From NCBI GenBank assembly GCA_036493835.1, contig DASXPD010000129.1:7466-71465 (forward strand): a stretch of 64,000 nt of DNA, given 5' to 3'. The notes below the pieces were generated by a model that was not told the DNA's origin, ran no database searches, and saw only the letters and a list, made by a program, of their open reading frames with translations. The translations under genes were made by a program, and so were the position numbers. This DNA is from Candidatus Acidiferrum sp. (GTDB taxonomy: Bacteria; Acidobacteriota; Terriglobia; Acidiferrales; UBA7541). Numbering within the stretch: the stretch's first letter is position 1; each line of letters opens with the position of its first letter. This document shows, piece after piece, positions 1 through 61,064 of the stretch.

Positions 1-348
1 ATACACCCCACCCATGAGCAGATAGACGCGGAAGGTTCACTTCCGTTTTGTTTAGGAATACGAAAAGTTTAGGGAAAGGTTTCCCGTAAAGCGAAGAAAG
101 ACAAAGTAGTTACAGAAATTAAGATAAGTATATAAACGGGCTACGGAAATTAAGATAAGAGGGAGCGGTTCGAAACGTTACAGGGATGTGACGGGGACGG
201 TAGGTTCAAGACGAGTGATGAATGTCCCGAAGATATGTGGCCGTCCGACCGTCCATATATATTGACGCTCATTTGGCCCGGACGGTGCTTTCCTTTCGAA
301 AAAACTCCGTCTAACACCAGCAAGTTTGTCTACTGCGTACGGAGAATA

Positions 349-13719: not shown

Positions 13720-15162
13720 ATGCGCGCCCGATTCCTTCTCTTGTGCACAACCTTGCTGCCCACCCTTGCCCCAGCCCAAACCGCAACCCACATCGGCCCG
13801 CGCGTAAAACCTTTCGTTCGCGAAGACGCCGCAACGATCGTCTTAACTCACGTCCGCGTGATCGATGGCACCGGCGCCGCTGCACGCACGGATCAATCGA
13901 TAGTGCTGCGCGACGGAAAAATCCTCGCCGTCGGCGACGCTGCATCGACAAAAGTTCCGGACGGCGCCAAAGTTCTCGATCTCGCCGGCCGCACCGTGAT
14001 CCCCGGCCTCGTCGGCATGCACGACCACATGTATTACCCCGCGCCACTCGGACCGCCCGCGATGTATCCCGAACACGCAACGAGTTTCCCGCGTCTCTAT
14101 CTCGCCGGCGGCGTTACGACCATTCGAACCACCGGCAGCGTCGAACCCTACACCGACCTCGAACTCAAGAAAGCGATCGACTCCGGCGCAGCCATCGGTC
14201 CAAAAATGCATGTCACCGGCCCTTACCTCGAAGGCCTCGGCTCATTCACGCCCCAAATGCACGAACTCAAAGACGCCGACGACGCCCGCCGCACCGTCGA
14301 ATACTGGATCTCCGAAGGCGTCACTTCCTTCAAGGCCTACATGCACATCACCCCCGACGAATTGGCCGCCGCGGTAAAAGCCGCGCACGCTCACAACATA
14401 AAAGTCACCGGTCACCTGTGTTCGATCGGCTTTCGCGAAGCCGCTTCCATCGGCATCGACGACCTCGAGCACGGCATCTTCGCCGATTCGGAATTCGTCG
14501 AAGGACGCAAGCCCGACACATGTCCTGAAGGCCGCGACGCGGTCGAAGATTCGCTGCTGAATCTCGACGCCACATCCGGTCCCCTCCACGACACGATTCG
14601 CGACCTGATCAGCAAGCATGTCGCCGTCACTTCGACCTTGCCGGTTTTCGAAACGATCGTGCCCAATCGCGCTCCGCTCGAACCCCGCGTCCTCGATGCG
14701 ATGTTGCCCGAAGCGCGCATCCAGTATCTGCAACGCCGCTCGACGATTTCCGACAACGCGGCGAAATCCCACTGGCCGGCCCTGCTCAAAAAAGAAATGG
14801 AGTTCGAACGCGAGTTCGCGAAGGAAGGCGGCTTGCTCCTCGCTGGATTGGATCCGACCGGATTCGGCGGCGTCATCGCCGGTTTTGGCGACCAGCGCGA
14901 AGTCGAGCTGCTGGTCGAGGCGGGCTTCACTCCGCTCGAAGCAATTCACATCGCGACCGCAAACGGCGCGGAGTTCCTAGGCGAATCAAATCAGATCGGC
15001 ACGATCGCACCCGGCAAAGCCGCCGACATCGTCGTGATCAACGGCGATCCGTCCGCGAATATCAAAGACATCGAAAACGTCGAAATCGTCTTCAAAGATG
15101 GCGTCGGTTACGATTCCGCAAAAATGATCGAGTCGGTTAAAGGTTTGGTCGGGCTGCGCTAA
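13720..15162 (+). CDS. Amidohydrolase family protein, secreted
   Basis: PGLVGMHDH (HxH), GGVTTIRTTG, AGLDPTG, GKAADIVV; ATG 13720 after AGGAG. Confidence 0.9.
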   Translation: MRARFLLLCTTLLPTLAPAQTATHIGPRVKPFVREDAATIVLTHVRVIDGTGAAARTDQSIVLRDGKILAVGDAASTKVPDGAKVLDLAGRTVIPGLVGMHDHMYYPAPLGPPAMYPEHATSFPRLYLAGGVTTIRTTGSVEPYTDLELKKAIDSGAAIGPKMHVTGPYLEGLGSFTPQMHELKDADDARRTVEYWISEGVTSFKAYMHITPDELAAAVKAAHAHNIKVTGHLCSIGFREAASIGIDDLEHGIFADSEFVEGRKPDTCPEGRDAVEDSLLNLDATSGPLHDTIRDLISKHVAVTSTLPVFETIVPNRAPLEPRVLDAMLPEARIQYLQRRSTISDNAAKSHWPALLKKEMEFEREFAKEGGLLLAGLDPTGFGGVIAGFGDQREVELLVEAGFTPLEAIHIATANGAEFLGESNQIGTIAPGKAADIVVINGDPSANIKDIENVEIVFKDGVGYDSAKMIESVKGLVGLR

Positions 15163-15198
15163 GGCCGTACGCAATCCAAGCCACGACGATACGACGCG

Positions 15199-16635
15199 CT
15201 ACGGCAACATATTCTTGCCATCGGCCGACGGCAGCTCAAGCCCCGCTTCATGCGCCAGCGTCGGCGCGATATTCCGCATATCGATCACGCCCAAATCCTT
15301 AGCCGCGGGCACGCCCGGCCCAACCAGAAAAAACGCCGCGCGCAAATCCGGCACGTCCGGCAATTCGCCATGCGTTCCCCCGACTTTCGTCTTCGTCAGC
15401 AATGCCCCATCCAGATCGTAGCCCGTACGCCACCCCGGCTTCATGCTCACAAAAAACGACGCCGTTGGATATCCACCGCGTTCATGCACCTGCTCCGCAT
15501 CCAACACGCGATCCACGCCATTCGCCGGATCAGCCGCAATCTTCGCCAGCAACTCCTTCACCTGCGAACTCACAGCCGCATCCGTCGGCTCCTTCAGCAC
15601 AATCGCAGCCGACCCACCCGTCACCCACGGAATCGCCCTCCAATCCGTGATTTTCCCCTTCGCATCGACGTCAAACAATTTCGCCTCACGAAACGCCGCA
15701 AACAAATTCAGCTGCGCATCCGTGCGCGCGAACCCGTGATCCGACACCACTGCTACAAACGTATGCTCCGGCGCAAACTTCTCCGCCGCTTCCCACACTC
15801 TACCGATCGCCGCATCAATCCCTTCAAGCACCGCCACCGCCTCAGGACTGAACGGCCCCGTCTCGTGCTCGATATGATCGAGCGCAATCAAGTGCAGCGT
15901 CAGCAGCGCCGGATGCTTTTTCTCCAGAATCCACTCCGCATATTTGCCGCGATTCTTGTCGGCTTCCACCGTCGTATCAATCCCTCCACTGTACGGCCCG
16001 ATCTCCGCCGAAATTTCCGCGATCAGTCCCGGCGTCGACACCGCGCGCAGCAACTTCGCATCGTCCGGCGTATTCGCGCGCCAAAATTCCGGAATCACCC
16101 AATTGATATGCGCGCCCACCGTCACCGGCCACTGAATGCTCGCCGTCGTGCGCCCCGCTTTCGCCGCCGCGTCCCACAACGTCGGCACGCGAATATCTTC
16201 CGCATACCAATACCAGCCCTGAAAATTTTTCTGCAGCGGATCGAATGTCGTATTTGCGTAAATTCCGTGCTCCGCCGGCCACACTCCGGTCATCAACGTG
16301 GTGTGACTTGGATAGGTCACAGTCGGCACGACTCCTTGCACCCCGTCCGCATACGTGCCGAGCTTCATCATCCGGCGCAGGTTCGGAATTTTCGCGCCAT
16401 GCGCGTCGGCTTGCGTCACGTAGTCTGGCCTTAACCCATCGACCGAAATCACCACCAGCAGCGGTGACATCGGCCGGTTCTGTCCCACCGCTCGATCTTG
16501 AACGGCCGCGACGCGCGCTCCGACAATGCTGACGCTAGCGATCGCGCCCGTGCAAGCGATCACCGCAACCAGCTCCAGCGCCAGCCGCCGAAACGAAATG
16601 CGACTTCCACTTCGCACCATCGATCTCCAGCCCAT
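15199..16635 (-). CDS. Nucleotide pyrophosphatase/phosphodiesterase (alkaline phosphatase superfamily)
   Basis: VISVDGLRPD, PTVTYPSHTTLMTG, DHIEH, SDHGF, GTHG; start 16635 or 16620. Confidence 0.9.
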   Translation of the reverse strand: MGWRSMVRSGSRISFRRLALELVAVIACTGAIASVSIVGARVAAVQDRAVGQNRPMSPLLVVISVDGLRPDYVTQADAHGAKIPNLRRMMKLGTYADGVQGVVPTVTYPSHTTLMTGVWPAEHGIYANTTFDPLQKNFQGWYWYAEDIRVPTLWDAAAKAGRTTASIQWPVTVGAHINWVIPEFWRANTPDDAKLLRAVSTPGLIAEISAEIGPYSGGIDTTVEADKNRGKYAEWILEKKHPALLTLHLIALDHIEHETGPFSPEAVAVLEGIDAAIGRVWEAAEKFAPEHTFVAVVSDHGFARTDAQLNLFAAFREAKLFDVDAKGKITDWRAIPWVTGGSAAIVLKEPTDAAVSSQVKELLAKIAADPANGVDRVLDAEQVHERGGYPTASFFVSMKPGWRTGYDLDGALLTKTKVGGTHGELPDVPDLRAAFFLVGPGVPAAKDLGVIDMRNIAPTLAHEAGLELPSADGKNMLP

Positions 16636-17020
16636 CGTCTTCAATCTCCCCCCATCGCCTTCAGTCAGGGTTCGGCTCCGAAACTGGCAGCATACCTCAG
16701 CCCACCTGCACCGTTTCACGGATCCCCATTCGGACTATGAATGCGATATAACAATCCAGCGGGCGCCGCCGAGCCAGCCCTCGTTTCCAAAGGCGCTGTT
16801 TCTCTGCTTTGAGGGTGATAAACTCAATCAATCCAATGCATCGGCCAATGACACCACGGACGTCAACCACCCACTTCAAAACTACCTCCCCGGCCCTAAA
16901 TAATGTAGAGTCTAGGGCCGGCATCGGACAGCTTGAGGGCGCAGCCCAATCCGCAATCACCGTGGCCCTGCCAGTTACGGTGAGCGCTATGTCCGCGCCG
17001 ATCGAGACGGGGGAGCTCCT

Positions 17021-18238
17021 TTGAGCATCGAACACGCATCTGCGGTCGCTTCAGCGTCGCAAACCGCCTCAATCGCGGTGCCACCCAAACGCGCCGCGAC
17101 CGAATATCCCTTCATCCTTGCCAGCGCCACCGCCCTTCCCGAGCACACCATCACGCGCGAAGATGTGAAGTATCAACTGGGACGCGTCTTCGACATCCCA
17201 GAGCGCAAGCTCGAAGCCATGATGTCGATCGTCGATAACGCCCAAGTCCACAAGCGCCACTCGATCTTCCCGGTTGAACACATCGTCCAGCCGCGCGGCC
17301 TCGAAAAAACCAATCAGGAATACATCGAGCACGCCATCAAGCTCGGCCGCGAAGCCGCCGAAAAATGCCTCGAACGCGCACACCTTCGCGCCGATGAAAT
17401 CGACCTCATCATCACCGTCAGCTGCACCGGCTTCATGATTCCGTCACTCGACGCCCACCTTATTAATTTGATGGGCTTCCGCAGCGACGTCCGCCGCATG
17501 CCCTTCACCGAGCTCGGCTGCGCCGCCGGCGCGATGGGACTCTCCCGCGCCGCCGACTATCTCAAGGCCTATCCCGGCGGCAACGCGCTTGTCATCGCCG
17601 TCGAACTCCCGACGCTCACCTTCCAGCGCAAAGACATTTCGCAGGCCAATCTCATTTCATCGATTCTTTTCGGTGACGGCGCCGCCGCCGTCATCGTCAG
17701 CAACAACCCGAAAGCCGTCGCCACTGCGCCACCTTCGAACTCAACCGCCCACGCGAACGGCAACGGCAACTCCAACGGCTCCTCAACCACTTCCAATCAC
17801 AAGCCTCAAATTCTCGTCTCCGAAACCTACACCTTTCCCGACTCCCTCGGCGCCATGGGCTTCGATCTTCGCGACTCCGGCTTCCACATCCTGCTCGACA
17901 AAGGCGTGCCCGACATGATCGGCGCCAAAATCAAATCGCTCGTCGACAGTTTCCTCGGCAGCCATGGCCTGACGCAGCAAGACATCAAAGGTTGGATCCT
18001 GCATCCCGGCGGCGCGCGCCTGCTCGGCAACGTCGAAATCGCCCTCGGCCTCGACAAGTCCCAAACGCAACCGTCGTGGGACGTCCTCGCCAACGTCGGC
18101 AATCTTTCCAGCGCAACCATTCTCTTCATCCTTCAGGAATGGCTCGAGAAGCGCCCGCTCAACCCCGGCGACATCGCGATGGCTGCCGCCTTCGGCCCGG
18201 GCTTCAGCGCTGAATTTCTGCTCCTCCAATGGACCTGA
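17021..18238 (+). CDS. Type III polyketide synthase
   Basis: Catalytic triad Cys (ELGCAAG), His (LHPGG), Asn (GNLSS); FGDGAAA, AFGPGF; TTG start after GGGGAG. Confidence 0.93.
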   Translation: MSIEHASAVASASQTASIAVPPKRAATEYPFILASATALPEHTITREDVKYQLGRVFDIPERKLEAMMSIVDNAQVHKRHSIFPVEHIVQPRGLEKTNQEYIEHAIKLGREAAEKCLERAHLRADEIDLIITVSCTGFMIPSLDAHLINLMGFRSDVRRMPFTELGCAAGAMGLSRAADYLKAYPGGNALVIAVELPTLTFQRKDISQANLISSILFGDGAAAVIVSNNPKAVATAPPSNSTAHANGNGNSNGSSTTSNHKPQILVSETYTFPDSLGAMGFDLRDSGFHILLDKGVPDMIGAKIKSLVDSFLGSHGLTQQDIKGWILHPGGARLLGNVEIALGLDKSQTQPSWDVLANVGNLSSATILFILQEWLEKRPLNPGDIAMAAAFGPGFSAEFLLLQWT

Positions 18239-18801
18239 GTGTCATCGCGTATCTCCTGCTGCTGCTCCTCGTAGCGGCGCTCCGCATCGTCGAACTCCGC
18301 ATCTCGCGCAATCATCAGCGCGCCATGGTTCCGCGCGGCGCCGAAGTCGTCGCCGAGCCGCTCTATCGCTGGATGGTCGCGCTCCACACCTTCGTCATCG
18401 CCGGTTCCGCCGTCGAAGTCGTCGCGCTCAAGCGCCCCTTCATTCCCGTTCTCGCATTCATCATGTTCGGCATTTTCCTCGCCGCAAACATCGTGCGCTG
18501 GTGGGTGATTCGAACGCTCGGCGATCACTGGAACGTTCAAGTGATGGATTCGACCAGCCTCGGCGTGATTACCAGTGGTCCTTTCCGCTTCGTGCGGCAT
18601 CCTAACTATGCGGCGGTTTTTGCGGAGATGATCGCGCTCCCATTGATTCACACGGCTTGGATCACCGCGCTGGTTGGCGCAATCGGCCACGTCGCGGTGC
18701 TCGCGCGTCGTCTCGCCACCGAAGAGCGCGTGCTCTTCGCGAACCCCGACTATCGCGCTGCGATGTCCAGCAAGCCCAGGTTTCTGCCCGGCCTCTTCTG
18801 A
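18229..18801 (+). CDS. Isoprenylcysteine carboxyl methyltransferase family (SrsB/BpsB-like O-methyltransferase)
   Basis: RWWVIRTLG..WN, GPFRFVRHPNY, EERVL; overlaps the PKS stop. Confidence 0.88.
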   Translation: MDLSVIAYLLLLLLVAALRIVELRISRNHQRAMVPRGAEVVAEPLYRWMVALHTFVIAGSAVEVVALKRPFIPVLAFIMFGIFLAANIVRWWVIRTLGDHWNVQVMDSTSLGVITSGPFRFVRHPNYAAVFAEMIALPLIHTAWITALVGAIGHVAVLARRLATEERVLFANPDYRAAMSSKPRFLPGLF

Positions 18802-18818
18802 ACTCTGAAAATTTCTCT

Positions 18819-19724
18819 ATGCGCCGACTCGCTCGCGTCGCCTTTTTAATCGCGCTTCTCGTCGCATCGGCCGCGAATCTCGCGACCGCAGCCGCGACTC
18901 CCGCGCCACCAGACGATCCGTCCCCCGCCTTCAACAAAGACCCCGAACTCGCCAACGGCTTCCACCATCTTTACGCGCAAGATTTCACCGAAGCCCGCGT
19001 CATTTTCACCACTTGGGAAAACGCTCATCCCGACCAGCCCTTCGGACAAGTCGCCATCGCCGCCAGTTACCTTTTCGAAGAGCTCTACCGCCAGCGTGTT
19101 CTAACCAGCGATTTTTTTCTCGACCAGAAGCGCTTCCTCAACGGCATCGAAGGCAAGCCCGATGCCGACCGCATGAACCACTTCCGCGGTGCCGTCGAAC
19201 ACGCGCGCACTCTTTCGAAAGCGCGCCTCAAGAAAAATCCGAAAGATCCCGAAGGCCTCTTCGGCCTGGCGCTCGCCGCCGGAATGGAATCCGACGCCTA
19301 CGCGATTCTCGAGAAAAAACAGGTCGACGCGCTCAAACGCCTGAAGGAAGCCAACGAAAACGCCAAAACGCTTCTCGCCGTCCAACCCGATGCCAACGAC
19401 GCCTGGGTCGCGCTCGGCGCCGCCAACTACATCATCGGCTCGCTCAACGCCGGTTATCGCATGGGCCTCTTTTTTCTCGGCATCCACGGCGACAAAAAAC
19501 TCGGCATGGAGCAACTCGAAAAAACCGCCAACAACGGCCGCTATCTCCAACCCTTCGCAAAAATTCTCCTCGCCTTAAGCGCCCGCCGCGAAAAGCAAAA
19601 CGCCCTCGCCCAAAAACTTCTGCTCGAACTCACCCAGGAATTCCCCGACAACCCCACCTTCGCCTCCGAATACGCCAAATCCATGGGCCGCCCCATCCCC
19701 GCCGAACTAAAACCCACCCCTTAG
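18819..19724 (+). CDS. Secreted helical/TPR-like hypothetical protein
   Basis: Signal peptide, TPR-like helices; C-ending codon usage matches neighbours. Confidence 0.75.
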   Translation: MRRLARVAFLIALLVASAANLATAAATPAPPDDPSPAFNKDPELANGFHHLYAQDFTEARVIFTTWENAHPDQPFGQVAIAASYLFEELYRQRVLTSDFFLDQKRFLNGIEGKPDADRMNHFRGAVEHARTLSKARLKKNPKDPEGLFGLALAAGMESDAYAILEKKQVDALKRLKEANENAKTLLAVQPDANDAWVALGAANYIIGSLNAGYRMGLFFLGIHGDKKLGMEQLEKTANNGRYLQPFAKILLALSARREKQNALAQKLLLELTQEFPDNPTFASEYAKSMGRPIPAELKPTP

Positions 19725-19884
19725 TTCGCCTCCGAACCTTTCACCGCGCACGATTCGCCGAGGTCATGTATGGGCGCAGCACCGCTGCGCCCGATGTCCG
19801 CAAGATGTAATCCGCCACAGTCCGAGCGTAGCTTTCGAATGCCGCTGCTCCGACTCAATTCCCACTTTCATTTCGGCAAAAAAC

Positions 19885-19969
19885 TGTCATCCCGACCGAA
19901 GCGAGCCCACGCCTTTTCTTTCGCGTTCGCGTGTTCGCGAACGCGTGGGCTTGCGCAGTGGAGGGACCT
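19885..19969. repeat. REP-like element, TGTCAT..GGACCT family, copy 1
   Basis: TGTCATCCCGACCGAAGC...internal hairpin...GCAGTGGAGGGACCT. Confidence 0.8.
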
Positions 19970-20071
19970 TGGCGTGATCGCAACCACACCGCCACTCACT
20001 GAGACCCGCAACTCTCGCGCCTCAACCCAATTTCCATTTTCCCTTTTCCTTTTTCCCTCTACACTCCTCCC

Positions 20072-20926
20072 ATGTTCCAACCCACTCTCTTCCACAACCG
20101 CGCCATCCTCATCTCCGGCGGCGGCTCCGGCCTTGGCCGCAGCATGGCCCTCAAATTCGCCGAACTCGGCGCCCAAATCTTTATCATCGGGCGCCGCGAA
20201 CAACCTCTGAAAGACACATGCGAAGAAATCCGCCGCGCCGGAGGCTCGGCCGGATTCGCCACCGCCGACGTCCGCGAACCATCCGCCGTCGAAGCCGCTG
20301 TCGACACCGCCTTCAATCAATTCGGCCGCATCGACACGCTCGTCAACAACGCCGCCGGCAATTTCATGGCCCGCACCGAAACCCTCAGCGCCAACGCTTT
20401 CTCCGCGGTTGTAGGTATCGTGTTAAACGGCTCGTTCAACTGCACGCAAGCCCTCGCCAAACATTGGATCGCCGACAAACAAGGTGGGAACATCCTCAAC
20501 ATCGTCACAACTTACGCCGCCGCAAATTCCGGCTCCGCGTTCGTCGTGCCCTCCGCCTGCGCCAAAGCAGGCGTGCTCGCCATGACCACTTCTCTCGCCG
20601 TCGAGTGGGCAAAATACAAAATCCGCGTCAACGCCATCGCCCCCGGCCCATTTCCCACCGAAGGCGCCTGGTCGCGCCTCATGCCCTCAAAACAATTCGA
20701 GGATCACGCCCGCGAGTCACATCCGATGAAGCGCTTCGGCCGCCACGATGAACTCACCAACCTCGCCGCCTTCCTCCTCAGCAACATGTCCGAATACATC
20801 AACGGCGAATGCGTCGTCATCGACGGCGCCCTCTGGCTCCGCGGCGCCGGCGAATTCAACGATTTGCTGGCCCTACCCGAAAGTGCGTGGCAGGCAATGG
20901 AGTCGTCGCGCTCGAAGAAATCCTGA
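20072..20926 (+). CDS. SDR oxidoreductase, 2,4-dienoyl-CoA reductase-like
   Basis: SGGGSGLG, LVNNAAGNF, SACAKAG, NAIAPGPFPT. Confidence 0.9.
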   Translation: MFQPTLFHNRAILISGGGSGLGRSMALKFAELGAQIFIIGRREQPLKDTCEEIRRAGGSAGFATADVREPSAVEAAVDTAFNQFGRIDTLVNNAAGNFMARTETLSANAFSAVVGIVLNGSFNCTQALAKHWIADKQGGNILNIVTTYAAANSGSAFVVPSACAKAGVLAMTTSLAVEWAKYKIRVNAIAPGPFPTEGAWSRLMPSKQFEDHARESHPMKRFGRHDELTNLAAFLLSNMSEYINGECVVIDGALWLRGAGEFNDLLALPESAWQAMESSRSKKS

Positions 20927-20964
20927 CCGCTCAAATTTCAACGCTTGGCAAAATCTGGAAGGAC

Positions 20965-21047
20965 TGTCATTCCGACCGGAGCAAGCCGACGTCTTTTCTT
21001 CGCATTCACTTCCTGTGAATGCATCGGCTTGTGTAGTGGAGGAACCT
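20965..21047. repeat. REP-like element copy 2
   Basis: TGTCATTCCGACCGGAGC...GTAGTGGAGGAACCT with the same internal architecture. Confidence 0.8.
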
Positions 21048-21133
21048 CTCTTCGATCTCGCCGTCAGGACAGGCGTTGCACAAAAGCTCTGTTTTTTCTT
21101 TGTGTTTGCACAACACGACCGCCGCTAAAAAAT

Positions 21134-21236
21134 TGTCATCCCGACCGAAGCGGGCCGGGCCTTCTCTTTCGCGTTCGCCCGAAGGCCCTGAGCCTCGAAG
21201 GGTGCGAACGCGCCGGTCCGCGCAGCGGAGGGACCT
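21134..21236. repeat. REP-like element copy 3 with expanded loop
   Basis: TGTCATCCCGACCGAAGC...GCAGCGGAGGGACCT. Confidence 0.8.
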
Positions 21237-21302
21237 TGGCTACCTCTCAACACAACTCCCAACCGATGAGACTCGCTTCCATCCTGCCGCTCACGTTCTC
21301 AC

Positions 21303-22751
21303 TCACTCCGGCAGTGCCTTCTTCCTCAACTCCACCTTCATCTTCACCACCCCAATCTCTTTCCCATCCGCTTCCGCCTTCACGCTAACTTCCTTCGCAT
21401 CCTCTCTACTCTTCTTCTCATCCGCCAGCCCAGGCAAATTAATTTCCACCCGCGCCCCAGCAGTCTGCTTTTCCCCAACCACAAATTTCCCGGCACCACT
21501 CGCCACCGTCCACCCCGCTGGCAATTCCGCGCTCAATGTAATTTCTTTTTTCCCCGCCGTCGCATTCCTCACCCACAACGGAATCACCAACGTCGTCCCC
21601 GCCTGCAACGCAACCTCCGGCGGCTCCGGGTGCGGCAAATGCGTCAGCCCATGCGCCGTTCGAAAATCCGCATAAAACTTCCACGGCCCCGCCAATTCCA
21701 CTGACAACTCCGCCGCTCCGCTCGGCAACGCAAACGAAAACGCCTCCCTCCGAAACGGAATCGGATCGCTCGTCACATTTTCGAATATCGGCGCGGTCAC
21801 GTTTCCGCCCACCAACGATTTCCCCGACACAAATCGCTGTTCGTCAGCCCAACCATCCGCCTTCATCATTTTTTCAATCGCCGCGTCATCCATTTTGTCC
21901 AGCTGCTCGGCAAAACTCTTCGCCTGTGTCTGGTGCACTCGAAACGCATCCAGCGAAGCGCGCCAGTACGGCTTCTTCGACGACTTCGAGATCTCTTTCA
22001 CCGAGTACGACGGCCCCTTGCCCTTGAAAATGTCTTCCCGCTCCGCATCCGGAAAATAGAAAATCTTTTTCGGCTGCCACGGCCGCAACCCTTCGAGATA
22101 CGGTTCCAGCCTCTTCAAAGGCTCCGCAACCTGATTCGGAAACACCGTCGGATCGCCCGCAAGATCGAACGCCTCCGTCGCCACAACTCCCGCCGCCTGA
22201 TGATCCCCGTGGTCCTCGCCAATAAATGTCCCTGGCAAAAATGTCAGCACGACTTCCGGACGCGTCAGCCGCACCAGCCGCACAAGTTGTTCGAGCGCCG
22301 CGCCATGCTCCCAGTTCGCCAGCGACACCAGCACGTCCTGCCCCGCCGTATCTTTCCCATCCAGAAACCAAACATTCGTGATCCCCAAAGTCGCATTCGC
22401 TCGGCGCGCCTCAATCTCACGAATCGCCGCCAGCGCCGAAGCCTGCTCCGTCCCGACTTCATTCCCCCCGTTCCCGCCGCGCGTCCCGTACACCACCGCC
22501 ACGCGCTTCCCCTCATCGATCGCCCGCGCCAAATACGCCGTCGCCGCCCCTTCATCGTCCGGATGCGCCACAACCAGAAGAATATCCGCCTTGTATCGAG
22601 TATCCGGCTCCCGCAGTTCCACCGCCGCCGGCGCAGGAGGTGTCTTGCCATCCGCCGCGTTCTGCCCACGCGCCGCCCCTACACCAGTCAGCAGCCAGCA
22701 AGTCACCGCCGCAGTCGCAAAACGCCTTCCACCCATCCGCCCTTTTCTCAT
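21303..22751 (-). CDS. PIG-L family deacetylase, secreted
   Basis: LVVAHPDDE, IREIEARRA, DHGDHQ. Confidence 0.9.
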   Translation of the reverse strand: MRKGRMGGRRFATAAVTCWLLTGVGAARGQNAADGKTPPAPAAVELREPDTRYKADILLVVAHPDDEGAATAYLARAIDEGKRVAVVYGTRGGNGGNEVGTEQASALAAIREIEARRANATLGITNVWFLDGKDTAGQDVLVSLANWEHGAALEQLVRLVRLTRPEVVLTFLPGTFIGEDHGDHQAAGVVATEAFDLAGDPTVFPNQVAEPLKRLEPYLEGLRPWQPKKIFYFPDAEREDIFKGKGPSYSVKEISKSSKKPYWRASLDAFRVHQTQAKSFAEQLDKMDDAAIEKMMKADGWADEQRFVSGKSLVGGNVTAPIFENVTSDPIPFRREAFSFALPSGAAELSVELAGPWKFYADFRTAHGLTHLPHPEPPEVALQAGTTLVIPLWVRNATAGKKEITLSAELPAGWTVASGAGKFVVGEKQTAGARVEINLPGLADEKKSREDAKEVSVKAEADGKEIGVVKMKVELRKKALPE

Positions 22752-22902
22752 TCCGCTCCCCTGAACCGACTCTCCAATTCATCGCCGCGTCGTCTAAAAC
22801 GAAAAAGTGTACCGCGTCTCCGCCAAAAACCGTTTAGTCGGAACACATTACTTCACCGCTCGACTCGCGGTGGCTTCGACAGGTAAGGCTATACTGCCCG
22901 CC

Positions 22903-24306
22903 ATGCGCCGCGCCCTCTCGATCCTGCTTATTCTTTGCCCCCTTGTCGCCGCGCAAAATCCCCCCGCGCCGACTCCAATCGCTCCCGTCCCGGGCCGAGT
23001 CGAGCCCCATCGAATCTGCGCCTCCAAACCCGACCAAACCTACGCCCTCTACCTTCCCTCCAATTACACGCCCACCAAAAAATGGCCCATCGTCTACGCC
23101 TACGACCCTTCCGCCCGCGGCGACCGCCCCGTCGACACCCTGAAAGCCGGCGCCGAAAAATACGGCTACATCGTCGCCGCGTCCAACAACTCCCGCAACG
23201 GCGCCTGGGCTCCCGAACTCGAAGCCGCCCAAGCCGTCTCCGACGACACCCACACCATCCTCTCGATCGACGATCATCGCGTTTATTTCACCGGCTTCTC
23301 CGGCGGCGCCCGCGTAGCAGGACGCATCGCACAACTATGCAAATGCGCCGCAGGCGTCTACCTCAACGGCGCCGGCTTCCCCAGCGGCACGAGCCCGTCG
23401 CCAAAGGACGCCGCTTTCCCGATCTTCGCCGCAGTCGGCAACCTCGACTTCAACTTCCCCGAAGTCACCCGCCTCGACGAAGCTCTAGCCGTCGCCGGCT
23501 ATCCGCATTTTCTCCGCTATTTCGACGGCCCGCATCAATGGGCCCCCGCCGAAGTCGCCGAAGAAGCCCTAGCCTGGTTTCGCCTCTTCGCGATGAAAAA
23601 AAATCTCACGCCGCGGGATCCCGACTTCATAGCCAGCCAGCGCGAAGCCGAAATCGCCCGCGCCAAATCTTTCGAGCAGTCCGGAAATTTGTTCTACGCC
23701 TTCCGCGAGTACAACCAAGCCATCGCAATTTTCGACGGCCTCGCCGATGTCGCGCCGTTCCGCAAAGCCGCCGATGCCCTCGCCTCGCAAAAAGCTGTCC
23801 GCGACGGCCCCAAGCGCCAGCAGCGCGACTTCGAAGAGCAAAAAAACCTCATCGCCGACATCACCACTTCCATGGCGAACTTCCGCACGAACACTCCCGA
23901 CCTCGCCGGCGACGTCAGCGCCACAAAACTGAAAGTCGCCAGTCTCCGCGAAGCCTCCACCCACGAAAAGAAACCCGAAAAGGCGATCATCCTGAAACGC
24001 GCCGTCGCCGACGTCTTCGTCCAAGCCATGGAAACCGGCAGCGACCGCCTCGACGCCAAGGAATATTCCCTCGCCAAAAATTATTACGTTCTCGCCACCG
24101 AGGCCATGCCCGACAGCCCAAACGCTTTCCGCACCCTCGCCATCTGCCAAGCCATGAACAACAACCGAAAAGCCGCCCTCGAATCCCTCCGCGAAGCCAA
24201 ATCCAAAGTGAAAGACATGCCCCCCTTCCTCGAATGGCTCCAGTCCGAACCCGCCTTCGCCCCCTTCCACGACGACCCCTCGTTCAAAGCCATCCTCGCC
24301 AACTAA
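22903..24306 (+). CDS. Secreted alpha/beta hydrolase (esterase-like) with C-terminal TPR region
   Basis: YALYLPSNY, nucleophile FTGFSGGA, FDGPHQW; helical C-terminus; ATG 22903. Confidence 0.8.
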   Translation: MRRALSILLILCPLVAAQNPPAPTPIAPVPGRVEPHRICASKPDQTYALYLPSNYTPTKKWPIVYAYDPSARGDRPVDTLKAGAEKYGYIVAASNNSRNGAWAPELEAAQAVSDDTHTILSIDDHRVYFTGFSGGARVAGRIAQLCKCAAGVYLNGAGFPSGTSPSPKDAAFPIFAAVGNLDFNFPEVTRLDEALAVAGYPHFLRYFDGPHQWAPAEVAEEALAWFRLFAMKKNLTPRDPDFIASQREAEIARAKSFEQSGNLFYAFREYNQAIAIFDGLADVAPFRKAADALASQKAVRDGPKRQQRDFEEQKNLIADITTSMANFRTNTPDLAGDVSATKLKVASLREASTHEKKPEKAIILKRAVADVFVQAMETGSDRLDAKEYSLAKNYYVLATEAMPDSPNAFRTLAICQAMNNNRKAALESLREAKSKVKDMPPFLEWLQSEPAFAPFHDDPSFKAILAN

Positions 24307-24411
24307 CTGTCCAGCTCGATTTGGTGGCCTCGGCTTCCAGCCGGCGTCTTTGCCGCCCACAACGGAAAGCTCAATCGTCGACCATAGATCCCGTCATTCG
24401 CATACATCCTC

Positions 24412-24487
24412 TTGACTTTTCCACAGCCTTGTGGTAGACTGATCTGCATTGAAAGTTGTCACCCAAAGCGCCCAAAAGGCGCTTTTT
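24412..24487 (+). promoter_or_regulatory. sigma70 promoter with DnaA-box-like spacer, followed closely by a terminator-like hairpin
   Basis: TTGACT(24412)-17-TAGACT(24435); TTTTCCACA at 24417; AAAGCGCC-caaaa-GGCGCTTT+TT at 24465-24487. Confidence 0.6.
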
Positions 24488-24501
24488 CCATTTTAGGCCA
24501 C

Positions 24502-24608
24502 CTGTAACCGCCTGATTCCAAAGCACCTACACACTCTCATTTTACGCCTCTGTAAGCCACTGATTTCGCACAACTTGCGCACTCTGCACAAAACAACCCG
24601 GGGGTACC
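24502..24608 (+). repeat. Non-coding repeat element, two 33-bp GTAA...CACTC units plus CACAAAACAACCCGGGGGT tail
   Basis: Units at 24504-24536 and 24552-24584; matches the reverse complement of 60683-60795. Confidence 0.75.
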
Positions 24609-24686
24609 CTGGCTTTCATACAGGTATAGCTATCGATATGCTGTTTGTAATATAATATGGCTATCGATCTGCTTTATGACATACAC

Positions 24687-24932
24687 ATGAGCGATCGAAC
24701 CCAAAGCAAGAGGTCCCCCGTGGAAACCGTAAAAGTCTCTCCCAAATTTCAAATCGTGATCCCCAAGACCGTTCGCGAATCCCTAAAGCTTGAGCCGGGC
24801 CAGGAACTCTATATTTACGCCGTCGACGGCTCAATCCGTGTCAGTCGGCCCCGTTCCATCAAAGATCTCCGCGGCATGGCCAGGGGGCTGAAGTGGAAGG
24901 ATGACTACCGTGATCGAAACGACCGCTTCTAA
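24687..24932 (+). CDS. AbrB/MazE/SpoVT family antitoxin
   Basis: VKVSPKFQIVIPKTVRESLKLEPG; overlaps downstream PIN gene; start 24687 or GTG 24720. Confidence 0.88.
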   Translation: MSDRTQSKRSPVETVKVSPKFQIVIPKTVRESLKLEPGQELYIYAVDGSIRVSRPRSIKDLRGMARGLKWKDDYRDRNDRF

Positions 24933-25299
24933 TTCCGTCGTTATCGACTCCTCCGGCTGGCTCGAATACATCACCGGCGATCAGAAGGCCGATCTCTTCG
25001 CGCCCTACTTCGAGACCGACGTACGCATTCTCGTGCCCGTCATAGTCTTGTATGAAGTACGGAAAGTCTTGCTCAGGAGCTTCTCCGAAACGATGGCCGA
25101 CATTTTTCAGTCCAACGCGCTTCGGCACGAAGTCATCAACATCGACGAATACATCGCAATGTCAGCGGCGACGCTCAGCCTGAAATACAAACTCGCCATG
25201 GCAGACGCGCTAATTTGCGCAACAGCACAACGCTATGAGGCACAGCTGGTTACCTCCGACGCACACTTCGACAACGTTCCCGGAGTCACACTTTTGTAG
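24901..25299 (+). CDS. vapC: PIN-domain toxin (VapC family)
   Basis: VVIDSSGWLEY, VLYEV, ADALICATA, LVTSDAHF; start may be GTG 24910. Confidence 0.9.
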   Translation: MTTVIETTASNSVVIDSSGWLEYITGDQKADLFAPYFETDVRILVPVIVLYEVRKVLLRSFSETMADIFQSNALRHEVINIDEYIAMSAATLSLKYKLAMADALICATAQRYEAQLVTSDAHFDNVPGVTLL

Positions 25300-25445
25300 A
25301 GGCACGGCACCGCCTTGCCCGTCTTTACGCTCATAAGCACAGGTTCTGTCCAACACGCGACGCTTGGACAAATACCTCCGCTGCCTTGACCGTCGTGGAT
25401 GTGGCCTTTAAGCTTGGTGTTTCTTACTTCGGGTGAACTCACAGC

Positions 25446-27473
25446 ATGGCGTCGATTCAAATTACTTTGCCGGATGGTTCAGTGCAGGAAGTGCCCCAGG
25501 GCACAACTCCGGCGGATATCGCGCGCAAGATTTCGCCGCGTCTCGCCGACGCCGCTCTCGTCGCGCGCATCTCCGATCCATCGGCATCCAGCGCAAACGC
25601 GCAAGCAACCGGCGCAAACGCTACCGCACTCGGCACCGACGACGGCTACCAGAGCAACAACGCCGGCGAGCTGATCGACCTCCGCCGCCCGCTCGACCAC
25701 AACGTCAAACTCCAGATCCTCACTGAAAAAGATCCCGACTCGCTCTACGTTTTCCGCCACTCCGCCGCGCATCTTCTCGCCGCCGCCGTGATGGAGCTTT
25801 ACCCCAATGTAAAACTCGGCATCGGCCCGCCGATCGACACCGGCTTCTTCTACGAATTTCTTCGCGAACAGCCGTTCACTCCCGAAGATCTCGAAAAAAT
25901 CGAAAAGAAAATGCACGAGCTCGCCGCTCAGGATCTCCCGAACGAGCGCAAACTCGTCCCGAAACCCGAAGCCGTCGAGCTCTACAAAAAATCCGACCAG
26001 ATTTTCAAATGCGAGCTGGTAGAAGAAAAAGCCACCGACCCGATGGTCTCCTTCTACACCACCGGAAAATTCATCGACTTCTGCCGCGGCCCGCACATTC
26101 CTTCCACCAAGCGCATCCAGGCCTTCAAATTGATGAGCGTCGCCGGCGCCTACTGGAAAGGCCGCGAAGGCAATCCGCAGCTCCAGCGCATTTACGCCGC
26201 CTGCTTCTACACACAAAAAGAACTCGACGCGTATCTCCATCGCCTCGAAGAAGCGAAGCGCCGCGATCATCGCAAGCTTGGCGCCGAACTCGATCTTTTC
26301 AGCATCGAGGACGAAGCCGGCCCCGGCCTGATTTTTTGGCATCCCAAAGGCGGCTTGATCCGCACCATCGTCGAAGACTGGCTGCGCGCCGAACTCTTCA
26401 AGCGCGGCTACGATATCGTCTACACACCGCACATCATGCGCCGCGAACTCTGGAACACCAGCGGCCACACCGGCTTTTACAAAGACAATATGTTCGGCCC
26501 CGTGGAAGTCGAAAAAGCCGAATACCAGCTCAAGCCGATGAATTGCCCCGGCCACATCCTGATTTACAAATCAAAGTTGCGCAGCTATCGCGATCTGCCA
26601 GTGCGCCTCGCCGAACTCGGCACCGTGTATCGCTACGAACGCAGCGGCGTTCTCCATGGATTGCTCCGCGTCCGCGGTTTTACTCAGGACGACGCCCACA
26701 TCTTCTGCATGCCGTCGCAAATCGAAAGTGAGGTCGAAGCCTGCATCGACTTCGCCTTCGCCGTCATGAAAAATTTCGGCTTCGAGCAATTCGAGGTCGA
26801 ACTTTCCGACTGGGACGAATCGCATCCCGAAAATTACGCGGGCAAGCCCGAAGACTGGCATCGCGCGACCAACGCGCTCGCCGAAACCATGACGCGCATC
26901 AAGGTCCCGTTCAAGCGCATCGCCGGCGAAGCCGCATTCTACGGCCCCAAAATCGACGTCAAATTGATCGACGCCATCGGCCGCTCGTGGCAGCTCACTA
27001 CCGTGCAGTTTGATTTCAATTTGCCCGCGCGCTTCAAACTCGAATACGTCGGCGAAGACGGCGCTCGCCATCAACCTTTGATGGTCCACCGCGCGCTGCT
27101 CGGTTCCGTCGAGCGCTTCTTCGGCATTCTCGTCGAGCACTACGCCGGCGCATTTCCGCTCTGGCTCGCTCCGGTGCAGGTGCAAGTCTGCCCCGTCAGC
27201 GAAAAAGTCATCGACTACGCCAAGCATGTCACCGACACGCTGAAGCGTCACGGCACACGCGTCCATCTCGACGAGCGCAACGAAAAGCTGCCGGCGAAAA
27301 TTCGCGACGCGCAGCTGCAAAAAATTCCCTACATGCTCGTGGTCGGCGGCAAAGAAGCCGAAGCCGGAACCGTTTCCGTCCGCCACCGCACCAAGGGCGA
27401 CCTCGGCCCCAAGCCGCTCGCGGAATTCCTTGCGTCCCTCCAAACCGAAATCGACTCGCGCACGATCGCGTAA
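25446..27473 (+). CDS. thrS: Threonine--tRNA ligase
   Basis: TGS domain, RHSAAH, DFCRGPH, RDHRKLG, KPMNCPGH, LRVRGFTQDDAH, anticodon domain. Confidence 0.98.
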   Translation: MASIQITLPDGSVQEVPQGTTPADIARKISPRLADAALVARISDPSASSANAQATGANATALGTDDGYQSNNAGELIDLRRPLDHNVKLQILTEKDPDSLYVFRHSAAHLLAAAVMELYPNVKLGIGPPIDTGFFYEFLREQPFTPEDLEKIEKKMHELAAQDLPNERKLVPKPEAVELYKKSDQIFKCELVEEKATDPMVSFYTTGKFIDFCRGPHIPSTKRIQAFKLMSVAGAYWKGREGNPQLQRIYAACFYTQKELDAYLHRLEEAKRRDHRKLGAELDLFSIEDEAGPGLIFWHPKGGLIRTIVEDWLRAELFKRGYDIVYTPHIMRRELWNTSGHTGFYKDNMFGPVEVEKAEYQLKPMNCPGHILIYKSKLRSYRDLPVRLAELGTVYRYERSGVLHGLLRVRGFTQDDAHIFCMPSQIESEVEACIDFAFAVMKNFGFEQFEVELSDWDESHPENYAGKPEDWHRATNALAETMTRIKVPFKRIAGEAAFYGPKIDVKLIDAIGRSWQLTTVQFDFNLPARFKLEYVGEDGARHQPLMVHRALLGSVERFFGILVEHYAGAFPLWLAPVQVQVCPVSEKVIDYAKHVTDTLKRHGTRVHLDERNEKLPAKIRDAQLQKIPYMLVVGGKEAEAGTVSVRHRTKGDLGPKPLAEFLASLQTEIDSRTIA

Positions 27474-28206
27474 TGCCAAGCGAGCCTCGGCCGCGCCTTC
27501 GGCGAAAGCCAAACTTGTACAGCCATCGCCCGAGCAAATTCACGCAACGGCCTCTGCTCCGCTCATCCACGTAACCGAGGAATTTTTCGCCGAAGCCGTC
27601 CGCGAACTCACCGAGCGCGACACCGATCTAAAACGCGTCGTCGAAAAATACGGCGTCCCGCCGCTCTGGGTCCGCGAACCCGGTTTTCCCACGCTCGTCT
27701 ACATCATTCTCGAGCAGCAAGTCTCGCTCGCTTCAGCCCGCGCTCTATACCAAAAACTCGAAAAGACCGTTCGCCCCTTCACTCCCGAAAAATTCCTCAA
27801 GCTCACGGAAGTCGAAATGCGCCAGCTGGGCTTCAGCCGCCAGAAAGCGCACTACACGCGCCTGCTCGCCGACGCCATCGAGCAAAACCAATTCGATCTT
27901 GATGCGCTGCCCGCACTCCACGACGATCACGCCCGCGAAAAATTAGTCGCTCTAAAAGGAATCGGCCGCTGGACCTCCGACATTTATCTCCTCAGCGCCC
28001 TCCGCCGTCCCGACATCTGGCCCGTCGGCGATCTCGCACTCGCCACCGCCGTGCAAGAAGTAAAACAACTCCGCAAGCGCCCCAGCCCTGAAAAACTCGA
28101 AAAAATGAGCGCTCCCTGGAAACCATTCCGCGCCATCGCCGCCCGCCTCTTCTGGCACGCCTACCTCTGCAAACGCGGCCAAAACTCCGCGACCATCAGC
28201 TTGTAG
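27430..28206 (+). CDS. DNA-3-methyladenine glycosylase II (AlkA/HhH-GPD family); start uncertain
   Basis: IILEQQVSLASA, GFSRQK, LKGIGRWT, DIWPVGDL, WKPFRAIA. Confidence 0.88.
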   Translation: MRPSKPKSTRARSRNAKRASAAPSAKAKLVQPSPEQIHATASAPLIHVTEEFFAEAVRELTERDTDLKRVVEKYGVPPLWVREPGFPTLVYIILEQQVSLASARALYQKLEKTVRPFTPEKFLKLTEVEMRQLGFSRQKAHYTRLLADAIEQNQFDLDALPALHDDHAREKLVALKGIGRWTSDIYLLSALRRPDIWPVGDLALATAVQEVKQLRKRPSPEKLEKMSAPWKPFRAIAARLFWHAYLCKRGQNSATISL

Positions 28207-57630: not shown

Positions 57631-57631
57631 G

Positions 57632-60567: not shown

Positions 60568-60682
60568 CGTCGAGAAGTAACTTCGCCCAGTCACCCCGCG
60601 CAGCAACTTCGTGTATCGCGTACTGCGACTCGCGCCGGCGTCGAATTTCTCGCTGGCGCGAGTTTCATTTTGGGAACCTGAG

Positions 60683-60795
60683 GTACACCCACCCCCGGGT
60701 TGTTTTGTGAAGAGTGCGTATGTCTAGGCGAATGAGCGGCTTACGCAGGCCCGCTTTTGAGGAGTGAGAATGTCGCGTGTTTTGAGCGACTTACG
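60683..60795 (-). repeat. Second copy of the tandem 33-bp-unit element
   Basis: GAGTG...TTAC units at 60712-60744 and 60762-60794; tail ACCCCCGGGTTGTTTTGTG. Confidence 0.75.
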
Positions 60796-61064
60796 ATTTA
60801 GATTTCTTCGCTTTTCGTTTGCTTTGGGCTCGTTCCGGCTCGTTGCGCGAGCCAAGTTCCACGAAGAGGCCGTATTGCGAATGAAAAAGTGTGTCGGGTA
60901 AGTCGAGGCGTGGTTTTCTACGAGCGGATTATAGCACACCGAAAATTGGTGGATTCGCAGTGGCGCTTGTGTCGTCCCAACTTGCAGCGGCGATTGTGGC
61001 GTCCGGATTTGAGGTGGCGAGTGTTGGCGTCGGGATTCGCGCGTAGTGCTAGAATGCCAGCCCT

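What the first reader, a model, noticed from the sequence alone, without database searches (positions are those of the whole stretch)
24502..24608. Dispersed non-coding element of tandem 33-bp units with a G-run tail (copies at 24.5 kb and 60.7 kb)
Seen: both copies carry two units that each span exactly 33 bp (GTAA...ACNTDC-DCACTC; periods 48 and 50 bp). Both share CGCACTCTKCACAAAACAACCCGGGGGT while the unit interiors diverge. The window start (1-190: ATACACCCCACCC, GTAA...TTAC, and GAAATTAAGATAAG twice) looks like a diverged relative. Conserved ends with variable cores and fixed length resemble tyrosine-recombinase or other protein-binding sites more than a simple MITE. I do not recognise the family.
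Basis: partly seen in the sequence, partly recalled or inferred. Interest (0 to 1): 0.65.

Follow-up and report, generated by a model that had tools for sequence, protein, structure and literature searches.

The report
Degenerate copies of an acidobacterial interspersed repeat
The two look-alike non-coding stretches are real, and they are worn, low-copy members of a large family of small repeated DNA elements that is very abundant in some soil and peat Acidobacteriota; this is an ordinary kind of bacterial "junk/mobile" repeat, though the family itself seems undescribed.

Summary
Both copies are real: A at 24502-24612 (+) and B at 60684-60796 (-). Each has two exact 33-nt GTAA..CACTC units (periods 48 and 50) and a shared 28-nt tail. 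The proposed third relative at window 1-190 is not one.

In the soil metagenomes that hold this genome, at least five more contigs of similar depth carry the 33-37-nt tail, and another holds a full two-unit copy.

A related copy in a peat acidobacterial contig (L013) is very high-copy. About 53-67 contigs per run pile on it, at roughly 30-70 times the depth of its flanks. Translations of that peat-type element appear as about 43 spurious "protein" clusters. The peat form folds strongly into three hairpins (z about -7). The window copies have lost that folding.

B is absent from the closest GyrA relative. A has an ortholog in a sister genome, where its units are better conserved than nearby silent sites.

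Nothing matches Rfam, phages, plasmids or viral contigs. There are no terminal inverted repeats, target-site duplications or nearby recombinase genes.

Best reading: a modular REP/REPIN- or MITE-like interspersed repeat. How it spreads was not shown. Interest is modest.

The parts
24502..24612 (+). Copy A of the repeat: two units, an A-rich linker and a degenerate G/C hairpin.
   Evidence: An orthologous copy lies in L031 at 9070-9183.
24504..24536 (+). Unit A1 (33 nt): GTAACCGCCTGATTCCAAAGCACCTACACACTC.
   Evidence: It is 82% identical to its ortholog in L031, against 45-76% at nearby four-fold sites.
24552..24584 (+). Unit A2 (33 nt): GTAAGCCACTGATTTCGCACAACTTGCGCACTC.
   Evidence: It is 76% identical to its L031 ortholog. 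It aligns to unit H1 of the peat copy with p=0.002.
24577..24612 (+). Tail, GCGCACTCTGCACAAAACAACCCGGGGGTACCC..., the segment most widely repeated in this genome.
   Evidence: Extra contigs match 24570-24606 with 3 mismatches. Only 57% identical to the L031 ortholog.
60684..60796 (-). Copy B of the repeat, in the opposite orientation. It starts about 12 nt after the T-tract of the gyrA terminator.
   Evidence: The gyrA-lactonase spacer is 497 nt here, 93 nt in L035 and 116 nt in L028-L030.
60762..60794 (-). Unit B1 (33 nt). It contains a small hairpin GTCGC-N9-GCGAC, which corresponds to GTTG-N8-CAAC in the peat copy.
   Evidence: It aligns to L013 2981-3007 with p=0.002.
60712..60744 (-). Unit B2 (33 nt).
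60684..60719 (-). Tail of B, ACGCACTCTTCACAAAACAACCCGGGGGTGGGTGTA. The hairpin is interrupted by TGGGTG.
   Evidence: Two further contigs match 60684-60720 and 60693-60725 with 3 mismatches.
24412..24487 (+). Context, not part of the repeat: a promoter-like TTGACT-17-TAGACT followed by a hairpin and T-tract, upstream of copy A.
   Evidence: It is 86% identical in L031.
60629..60671 (+). Context: the gyrA intrinsic terminator that abuts copy B.

Best explanation
Copies A and B are two degenerate, low-copy members of a family of small non-coding interspersed repeats found in Acidobacteriota (the Ca. Acidiferrum / Sulfotelmatobacter lineage and peat Terriglobia).

The family is modular. It has one to three units of about 50 nt (head GTAAGYC, end GCGCACTCT), then a linker CACAAAACAAC, then a G/C hairpin around a TA-rich centre. 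Copies share the 3' tail and vary towards the 5' side.

The family spreads, or has spread, as non-autonomous selfish DNA into intergenic regions just beyond gene ends, in either orientation.

In this genome it is sparse, with at least 7 loci. Copy B is a lineage-specific gain. Copy A is older and has been kept.

Shown: repetition, family membership, lineage-specific presence, hairpin conservation, and absence of coding or known-RNA signal.

Inferred only: the way it moves. My best guess is mobilisation in trans by a single-strand-DNA (HUH/Y1, RAYT/TIRYT-like) transposase that reads the hairpins, as for REP/REPIN elements.
For: Repetition in the window's own genome.
- The tail occurs twice in the window against 0.01 expected.
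- In soil run X1, five further contigs at depth 6.4-13.9 match the tail (33-37 nt, 3 mismatches) and then diverge; the host contigs have depth 8.8-11.1.
- A contig in run X5 carries a full two-unit copy with period 50, the tail and GGGGTATACCCCCC.

The peat relative and its family.
- L013 2950-3106 shares the exact 20-nt tail.
- With the tail excluded, its upstream part still aligns to A and to B, each with p=0.002.
- A profile built from A, B and A's L031 ortholog alone hits it at E=1e-4; that match includes the tail used to find L013.
- 53-67 contigs per run pile on that copy in X17-X19 (24 in X20). Summed depth is about 2700-3200 in X17 and X18, against 37-107 in its flanks. Depth rises in steps on the 5' side and falls sharply at the hairpin on the 3' side.
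- Its translation finds 44 protein clusters. 43 are taken to be spurious ORFs (the nine of these scanned have no Pfam domain), several carrying two copies; the other is a real Ig-domain protein.

Structure.
- The peat consensus folds into three hairpins with z about -7.
- Majority variants at 2977 and 2983 turn G-T wobbles into perfect pairs of a 14-bp inverted repeat.
- The terminal hairpin keeps its pairing with different sequences: GGGGG/CCCCC against CGGTG/CACCG.

Presence and absence in relatives.
- The B spacer is 497 nt here but 93-116 nt in relatives with 93-97% GyrA identity.
- A is present at the same site in L031 and absent in L032 and L033.

Orientation and negatives.
- A points the same way as its flanking genes; B points the opposite way.
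- No match in Rfam, plasmids, phages or viral contigs.
- Acidobacteria do encode their own group of Y1 tyrosine transposases flanked by repeat families (PMC3733652).
Against: - No transposase or partner gene was seen.
- A and B do not fold better than shuffled sequence (z +0.45 and -0.8; similar). They lack the hairpins that the proposed mechanism needs.
- No clean empty site was found. The spacers of relatives are too diverged to place exact insertion boundaries.
- A's units are better conserved than nearby silent sites (52 of 66 positions, against about 55-60% expected; my estimate p about 0.001). That points to a local function rather than pure junk.
- The link to the peat family was found through an exact 17-mer, so tail identity with L013 is ascertainment-biased.
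- A translated-profile test does not place A or B in the family, probably because frameshifts break the reading frame.
- Summed contig depth in a metagenome is not a per-genome copy number.
Confidence: 0.55

Rival explanations
1. It is an element that works at the RNA or transcription level. It could act as a terminator or insulator, as a 3' hairpin that stabilises upstream mRNA as REPs do, or as a family of small RNAs with a shared single-stranded CACAAAACAAC segment next to a hairpin. Under this reading the copies persist because they function where they sit.
For: - All three fully read loci lie 117-200 nt beyond a stop codon.
- On the reverse strand the hairpin is followed by GGGUUGUUUUGUG. 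In B and in the peat copy H this faces the end of a co-oriented gene (gyrA; the 312-aa gene in L044).
- The hairpin stem covaries.
- The forward strand is C-rich and G-poor (C/G 1.9-3.0), which is rut-like.
- Promoter-like sequences lie upstream of A and B on the element's strand, and each is conserved in a relative.
- A's units are conserved above the neutral level.
Against: - The terminator scan does not call the tail on either strand. Three G residues separate the stem from the U-rich run, and on the forward strand there is no U-tract at all.
- A and B have opposite orientations relative to their flanking genes. For A, no gene runs into the element on the reverse strand.
- A and B have no stable fold.
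- No Rfam match.
- No RNA runs could be found, so transcription is untested.
Confidence: 0.2
2. It is an array of protein-binding sites on double-stranded DNA. Each unit would carry an IHF-like bend site plus a second conserved motif (GCGCACTCT), and the tail would be the core site of a site-specific recombinase, or another anchor for a nucleoid protein.
For: - Unit heads and ends sit at a fixed distance from each other and are the parts conserved both between paralogs and between orthologs.
- Read in reverse, both units of A read AATCAGNNNNTTA, a perfect WATCARNNNNTTR. By my own reading of the sequences, most other units have 1-2 mismatches.
- IHF sites are known inside BIME-1/RIP and Correia repeats (my own knowledge, not checked here).
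Against: - No integrase, Xer or transposase gene appears in the gene tables for about 27 kb of the window's own contig or for the relative L031 over about 15.5-37.5 kb.
- There is no 11-6-11 dif-like or attC-like symmetry.
- The hairpin arms change by compensatory substitution. That argues for a folded single strand, not a sequence-specific dimer site.
- Unit length is not fixed across the family (34, about 26, and possibly about 27 nt).
- vapBC predates copy A, so the element does not delimit that cassette.
- The IHF resemblance is a consensus match only.
Confidence: 0.1
3. It has no family-level biology in this genome. A and B would be relics of an extinct repeat, or patches homogenised by gene conversion, now drifting, and any conservation would be due to neighbouring signals.
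For: - The hairpins are lost in A and B.
- The tail is only 57% and the inter-unit spacer only 47% identical between the A orthologs, close to the neutral level.
- Only two copies occur in about 80 kb of the window's own contig.
Against: - The tails of A and B are 27/28 identical, and the other genomic tails are about 91% identical. Orthologous A copies in sister genomes have diverged to 57% in the same segment. Either recent copying or active constraint is needed within this lineage.
- B is a gain since the split from a 97%-GyrA relative.
Confidence: 0.15

Closest known systems
REP / REPIN elements with RAYT (and the TIR-flanked TIRYT variant described in Acidobacteria, PMC3733652)
   Same: - Short intergenic repeats that occur in both orientations and are often clustered.
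- Hairpins are kept by compensatory change.
- The peat consensus has a 14-bp perfect inverted pair separated by 48 nt, which resembles a REPIN doublet.
- There are no target-site duplications.
- A short conserved head (GTAAG here, GTAG in REPs) precedes a palindrome in the peat form (GTAAGT-N14-ACTTAC).
   Different: - The head is GTAA[GC], not GTAG or CGTC.
- The window copies have direct units and no palindromes.
- The element is longer and modular (units, linker, terminal hairpin).
- No RAYT/TIRYT gene has been linked to it.
- The GGGGWSAS motif reported for some TIRs does not fit the tail.
BOX elements of Streptococcus pneumoniae and MIRUs of mycobacteria
   Same: These are dispersed loci built from a variable number of tandem modules of about 45-55 nt with conserved end modules. 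They are intergenic. The module period of 48-50 nt seen here also appears in the short form seen in the spurious ORFs (16 codons between SPLF motifs).
   Different: BOX elements have boxA and boxC ends that pair as inverted repeats. MIRUs sit inside operons in one orientation and overlap start and stop codons. Neither feature is seen here, and there is no sequence similarity.
Correia/NEMIS and BIME-1 (RIP) repeats
   Same: These are small structured intergenic repeats that carry an IHF consensus site and lie near gene ends.
   Different: Correia elements have 26-bp terminal inverted repeats and a TA duplication. BIME-1 consists of two inverted REPs around the IHF site. The window copies have neither, and IHF binding is untested.
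IS200/IS605-derived PATEs
   Same: There are no terminal inverted repeats and no target duplication. The features are strand-specific, and a hairpin sits near the 3' end.
   Different: No matching left-end hairpin and no cleavage tetranucleotide has been defined. No related tnpA was found.

Membership tests
REP/REPIN-RAYT | The unit is a short imperfect palindrome with a conserved 5' tetranucleotide (GTAG). | tested here: inconclusive
   Window units start with GTAA[GC] but do not fold. The peat copy has GTAAGT-N14-ACTTAC and other hairpins.
REP/REPIN-RAYT | Two inverted REPs form a long hairpin (a REPIN). | tested here: inconclusive
   Not met in A or B, whose units are direct. Met in the peat consensus: GCAAAAGAGTGCGC ... 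GCGCACTCTTTTGC, 14 bp, z about -7.
REP/REPIN-RAYT | A single-copy RAYT/TIRYT (Y1 HUH) gene flanked by the same repeats in the same genome. | not testable with these tools
None appears in the gene tables of the loci fetched.
MITE (DDE-transposase derived) | Terminal inverted repeats and a target-site duplication. | tested here: not met
   No inverted partner of the tail occurs in the window at up to 3 mismatches. The flanks of A, B and H show no direct duplication.
Modular tandem-unit repeats (BOX / MIRU type) | Dispersed loci made of a variable number of tandem modules of about 50 nt. | tested here: met
   Periods are 48 and 50 in A and B and 50 in the X5 copy. Depth on the peat copy rises in steps on the 5' side. 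Long and short forms both appear in the ORF translations.
Known RNA families (Rfam 15) | A match to a covariance model. | tested here: not met
   No hit at gathering score in the window. Nothing meaningful at E up to 10 around A, B or H.
Tyrosine-recombinase sites (dif/pdif, attC, attI/attP) | Inverted binding arms around a short central region, with a recombinase gene nearby or a cassette bounded by the sites. | tested here: not met
   No such symmetry is present. No integrase appears in the gene tables. vapBC is present without the element in L033.
Intrinsic terminator | A G+C-rich hairpin followed directly by a U-tract. | tested here: not met
   The scans call the neighbouring gene terminators but not the tail. 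GGG separates the stem from UUGUUUUGUG on the reverse strand.
IHF-binding site | WATCARNNNNTTR consensus, and binding. | tested here: inconclusive
   Read directly from the sequences: units A1 and A2 match perfectly and the others have 1-2 mismatches. Binding cannot be tested here.

The most novel reading that the evidence does not exclude
The family is a still-undescribed, Acidobacteriota-wide mobile element that grows by adding units of about 50 nt on the 5' side of a constant hairpin end. It would be moved by the Acidobacteria-specific group of Y1 tyrosine transposases. Old copies such as A would be taken over by the host as conserved protein-binding or leader sequence in front of housekeeping operons (vapBC-thrS).
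Probability: 0.2. Interest if true: 0.55.

Novelty: new member of a known kind. Interest (0 to 1): 0.33.

Why it matters
Small interspersed repeats are well known in Proteobacteria and Firmicutes. They are hardly described in Acidobacteriota, a dominant but poorly studied soil phylum.

This family has three practical consequences.
- It breaks metagenome assemblies at the repeat (short contigs ending inside it).
- It seeds dozens of false "hypothetical protein" clusters in protein databases.
- It marks lineage-specific gains next to core genes such as gyrA and thrS, which could serve as strain markers.

If a partner transposase is found, the family would extend the REPIN-RAYT type of long-lived host-element relationship to a new phylum. 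For this window itself, the two copies are worn relics, so the finding is of modest interest.

Tried and rejected
I could therefore not test whether the sister genome's variant tail is also multi-copy.

Searches that found little or nothing.
- The genome-contig scan with the 18-mer gave only 2 chance hits; the window's genome is not in that collection.
- The metagenome-contig scan with the 17-mer gave 24 loci, of which only L013 is a true relative.
- The viral-contig scan gave chance hits only.
- Plasmid and phage BLAST found nothing relevant.
- Rfam found nothing.
- No RNA runs were found.
- The word-indexed protein search with the translated element found no candidates.
- The literature search found no description of the family.

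Ideas considered and rejected.
- Conserved small ORFs: ATGs with a Shine-Dalgarno sequence occur in B but not in A.
- Sigma-70, sigma-54 or ECF promoter inside the unit: no fit on reading the sequence.
- Group II intron domain V, attC and dif: no fit.
- Window start as a third copy.
- L027 as a clean ortholog of B: only a short patch is alignable.
- Orientation relative to replication: GC skew in the window follows gene orientation and cannot place both copies.
- A translated-profile test of A and B against the family: not significant because of frameshifts.

Full report
**1. The observation**

Copy A lies at 24502-24612 on the + strand and copy B at 60684-60796 on the - strand. A pattern scan finds four units in the window, all exactly 33 nt. 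They lie at 24504-24536 and 24552-24584 (period 48) and at 60794-60762 and 60744-60712 (period 50).

The 19-mer CACAAAACAACCCGGGGGT occurs exactly twice, against 0.01 expected. The two copies form the longest inverted pair in the window, 60 nt at 78% identity.

Paralogous units share 18-23 of 33 positions. Their interiors share 8-11 of 19, against 5.1 expected from composition. Tandem Repeats Finder does not call the arrays.

The suggested third relative at window 1-190 fails. No profile built from the copies hits it. The window's own contig upstream (L036) shows a Trans_reg_C gene starting just before the window, with no tail there.

**2. Context**

A lies between a 499-aa gene with its own terminator and the promoter/operator region of a vapB-vapC pair that precedes thrS. 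B starts about 12 nt after the T-tract of the gyrA terminator, in the gyrA-lactonase spacer, and points the opposite way relative to its neighbours.

Neither copy matches Rfam. Neither folds better than shuffled sequence on either strand. Neither holds a conserved ORF: B has ATGs with Shine-Dalgarno sequences but A has none. The forward strand is C-rich and G-poor, with C/G of 2.3-3.0.

**3. More copies in the same genome**

In run X1 the host contigs have depth 8.8 and 11.1. Five other contigs, at depth 6.4-13.9 and 711-4162 nt long, match only the 33-37-nt tail with 3 mismatches and then run on into unrelated sequence. Together with A and B this gives at least seven tail-bearing loci at about the genome's depth.

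Their flanks show that the G-run is normally the left arm of a hairpin (GGGGGTA-TACCCCC, GGGG-TACA-CCCCC). Some copies have a GTAAC- or CTAAC-headed unit of the right length in front of the tail. Others have unrelated C/A-rich sequence there.

A contig in run X5 holds a full copy. It has two A2-like units with period 50, the tail, and GGGGTATACCCCCC.

About 80 kb of the window's own contig (the window plus L034 and L036) holds only A and B.

**4. Relatives elsewhere**

The genome-contig scan gave only chance hits. Of 24 metagenome hits to the 17-mer, only L013 (peat contig Ga0326728_10000127) is related. It has GCGCACTCT, then TTAAG- and GTAAG-headed units, the identical 20-nt tail, and GGGGGTATATGTACCCCC.

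That hit was selected by the tail, so I tested the upstream parts alone. A-upstream and B-upstream each align to L013-upstream with p=0.002 against shuffles, colinearly, and not to the reverse complement. The model built from A, B and A's L031 ortholog alone hits L013 at E=1e-4, though that match includes the tail by which L013 was found.

Laying peat metagenomes on L013 2940-3140 gave the key result.
- 53-67 contigs per run pile on it in X17-X19 (24 in X20).
- Summed depth is about 2700-3200 at 3031-3072 in X17 and X18, against 37-107 in the flanks.
- Depth rises in steps on the 5' side, at about 2961, 3010 and 3024-3031.
- Depth falls between 3080 and 3101 on the 3' side.
- Many contigs end inside the element.

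The translated element (49 aa) finds 44 clusters among 1.84 billion representatives. One is a real Ig-domain protein. The other 43 are ORFs of 99-353 aa; the nine of them scanned have no Pfam domain, so I take all 43 to be translations of the repeat. Several carry two copies.

A short form in those ORFs has 16 codons (48 nt) between successive SPLF motifs. That is the same period as in A and B.

So the window copies belong to a large family that is high-copy in peat Acidobacteriota.

**5. Structure of the family**

The peat consensus is L013 with the majority variants. It folds into three hairpins with z about -7 on either strand.
- A 14-bp perfect inverted pair, GCAAAAGAGTGCGC / GCGCACTCTTTTGC, encloses an inner stem.
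- A second hairpin is GTAAGT-N14-ACTTAC.
- The third is the terminal G/C hairpin.

The majority variants at 2977 (A) and 2983 (C) turn the two wobble pairs of L013 into Watson-Crick pairs. Terminal hairpins in other copies keep their pairing with different letters, for example CGGTG...CACCG instead of GGGGG...CCCCC. Pairing is therefore under selection, on single-stranded DNA or on RNA.

A and B align to the part of L013 from about 2981 to 3040 plus the tail. They lack the left arm and the second short unit, which is why they do not fold.

**6. History in this lineage**

For B, the gyrA-lactonase spacer is 497 nt here. It is 93 nt in the closest GyrA relative (L035, 97.1%) and 116 nt in L028-L030 (93-94%). 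In L027 it is 568 nt of only patchily related sequence. B is therefore a lineage-specific gain, but the spacers are too diverged to give exact junctions.

For A, L031 (ThrRS 97%) has an ortholog at the same site. L033 (88%) has vapB without the element. L032 (95%) lacks the 499-aa gene, the element and vapBC altogether.

Identity between the window and L031 by segment:

| Segment | Identity |
|---|---|
| Four-fold sites of neighbouring genes | 45-76% |
| Upstream promoter plus terminator | 86% |
| Unit 1 | 82% |
| Unit 2 | 76% |
| Inter-unit spacer | 47% |
| Tail | 57% |

The units are thus conserved above the local neutral level. The tail is not. Yet within the window genome the tails of A and B are 27/28 identical, and the other tails are about 91% identical to them. 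This combination needs either recent copying or conversion among paralogs, or lineage-specific constraint on the tail.

**7. What it most likely is**

The following features fit a modular interspersed repeat of the REP/REPIN, BOX/MIRU or MITE kind:
- repetition;
- a shared 3' end with variable 5' extent;
- both orientations;
- positions just beyond gene ends;
- hairpins kept by compensatory change;
- no coding or known-RNA signal;
- gain and loss between close relatives.

There are no terminal inverted repeats and no target duplications. That argues against a DDE-type MITE and, by analogy, for single-strand (HUH/Y1) mobilisation.

Di Nocera et al. describe an Acidobacteria-specific group of Y1 tyrosine transposases flanked by repeats that can form families (PMC3733652). 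The GGGGWSAS motif they report does not fit this tail. No such gene could be looked for in these genomes, so this step is inference only.

**8. Rivals**

- An RNA-level role is possible. The hairpin followed by a U-rich run on the reverse strand faces the end of gyrA and of the 312-aa gene in L044. However, the terminator scan does not call it, the orientation of A does not fit, and no RNA data were available.
What remains is a lead: the reversed unit heads resemble the IHF consensus, perfectly in A1 and A2.
- The copies may also be plain relics.

**9. Verdict**

The family is real and much larger than the window suggests. The kind of thing is known, though this particular family seems undescribed. 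The window copies are worn members, one of which may have been taken over by the host for a local function.

Noticed in passing
window 24412-24487: A promoter-like TTGACT-17-TAGACT, with a CCACAG..CTGTGG palindrome in its spacer, is followed about 20 nt later by a strong hairpin and T-tract. The whole block is 86% identical in the sister genome L031, far above neighbouring intergenic DNA, so it is probably functional (a tiny transcript or an attenuator in front of vapBC-thrS).
   Followed up: partly
window 24620-24656: Two copies of a TAGCTATCGATA-type palindrome overlap a TATAAT box just upstream of vapB. They are likely VapB operators. The same arrangement occurs in L031 and L033.
   Followed up: no
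window 57403-57847: A hicA-like toxin gene and a partner ORF sit on the minus strand between the small gene after gyrB and gyrA. No gene is called on that strand between gyrB and gyrA in relatives L027-L029 and L035. This would be another small toxin-antitoxin cassette gained next to core replication genes.
   Followed up: no
window 60759-60936: Inside the B spacer, a 43-codon ORF (ATG at 60770) has a strong GAGGAG ribosome-binding site. A TGCTATAAT extended -10 box on the opposite strand (60936-60928) is conserved as TGGTATAAT in L027. The convergent arrangement recalls a type I toxin-antisense pair, but the ORF is not conserved in L027.
   Followed up: partly
window 1-190: GAAATTAAGATAAG occurs twice as a direct repeat in the divergent promoter region between a Trans_reg_C (OmpR-type) regulator gene just upstream of the window and a TPR gene. 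These are likely binding sites for that regulator and are unrelated to the repeat studied here.
   Followed up: partly
window 19878-21276: A different repeat family (TGTCATCCCGACCGAAGCG... / ...GGAGGGACCTTGGC) has three copies around the SDR gene. Its translation (…SEPRAGRVEGS…) also turns up inside the spurious ORFs that carry the peat repeat, so the two families often lie together in acidobacterial intergenic DNA.
   Followed up: no
P0262-P0305 (protein clusters): About 43 clusters of 'hypothetical proteins' (99-353 aa) in the public protein collections are taken to be translations of this non-coding repeat (the nine scanned have no Pfam domain). This is an annotation artefact worth flagging.
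   Followed up: partly
window 14000-28000: GC skew is unusually strongly negative (-0.2 to -0.3) over about 14 kb, although most genes here lie on the + strand. The cumulative skew reaches its minimum near 56-62 kb, close to dnaA-gyrA.
   Followed up: no
L032 1530-1869, compared with window 22751-25446: A 95%-ThrRS relative lacks the 499-aa gene, the element and vapBC altogether. PIG-L abuts thrS with a 338-nt spacer that keeps the first bases of the 499-aa gene region, which suggests a 2.5-kb deletion or insertion polymorphism.
   Followed up: partly
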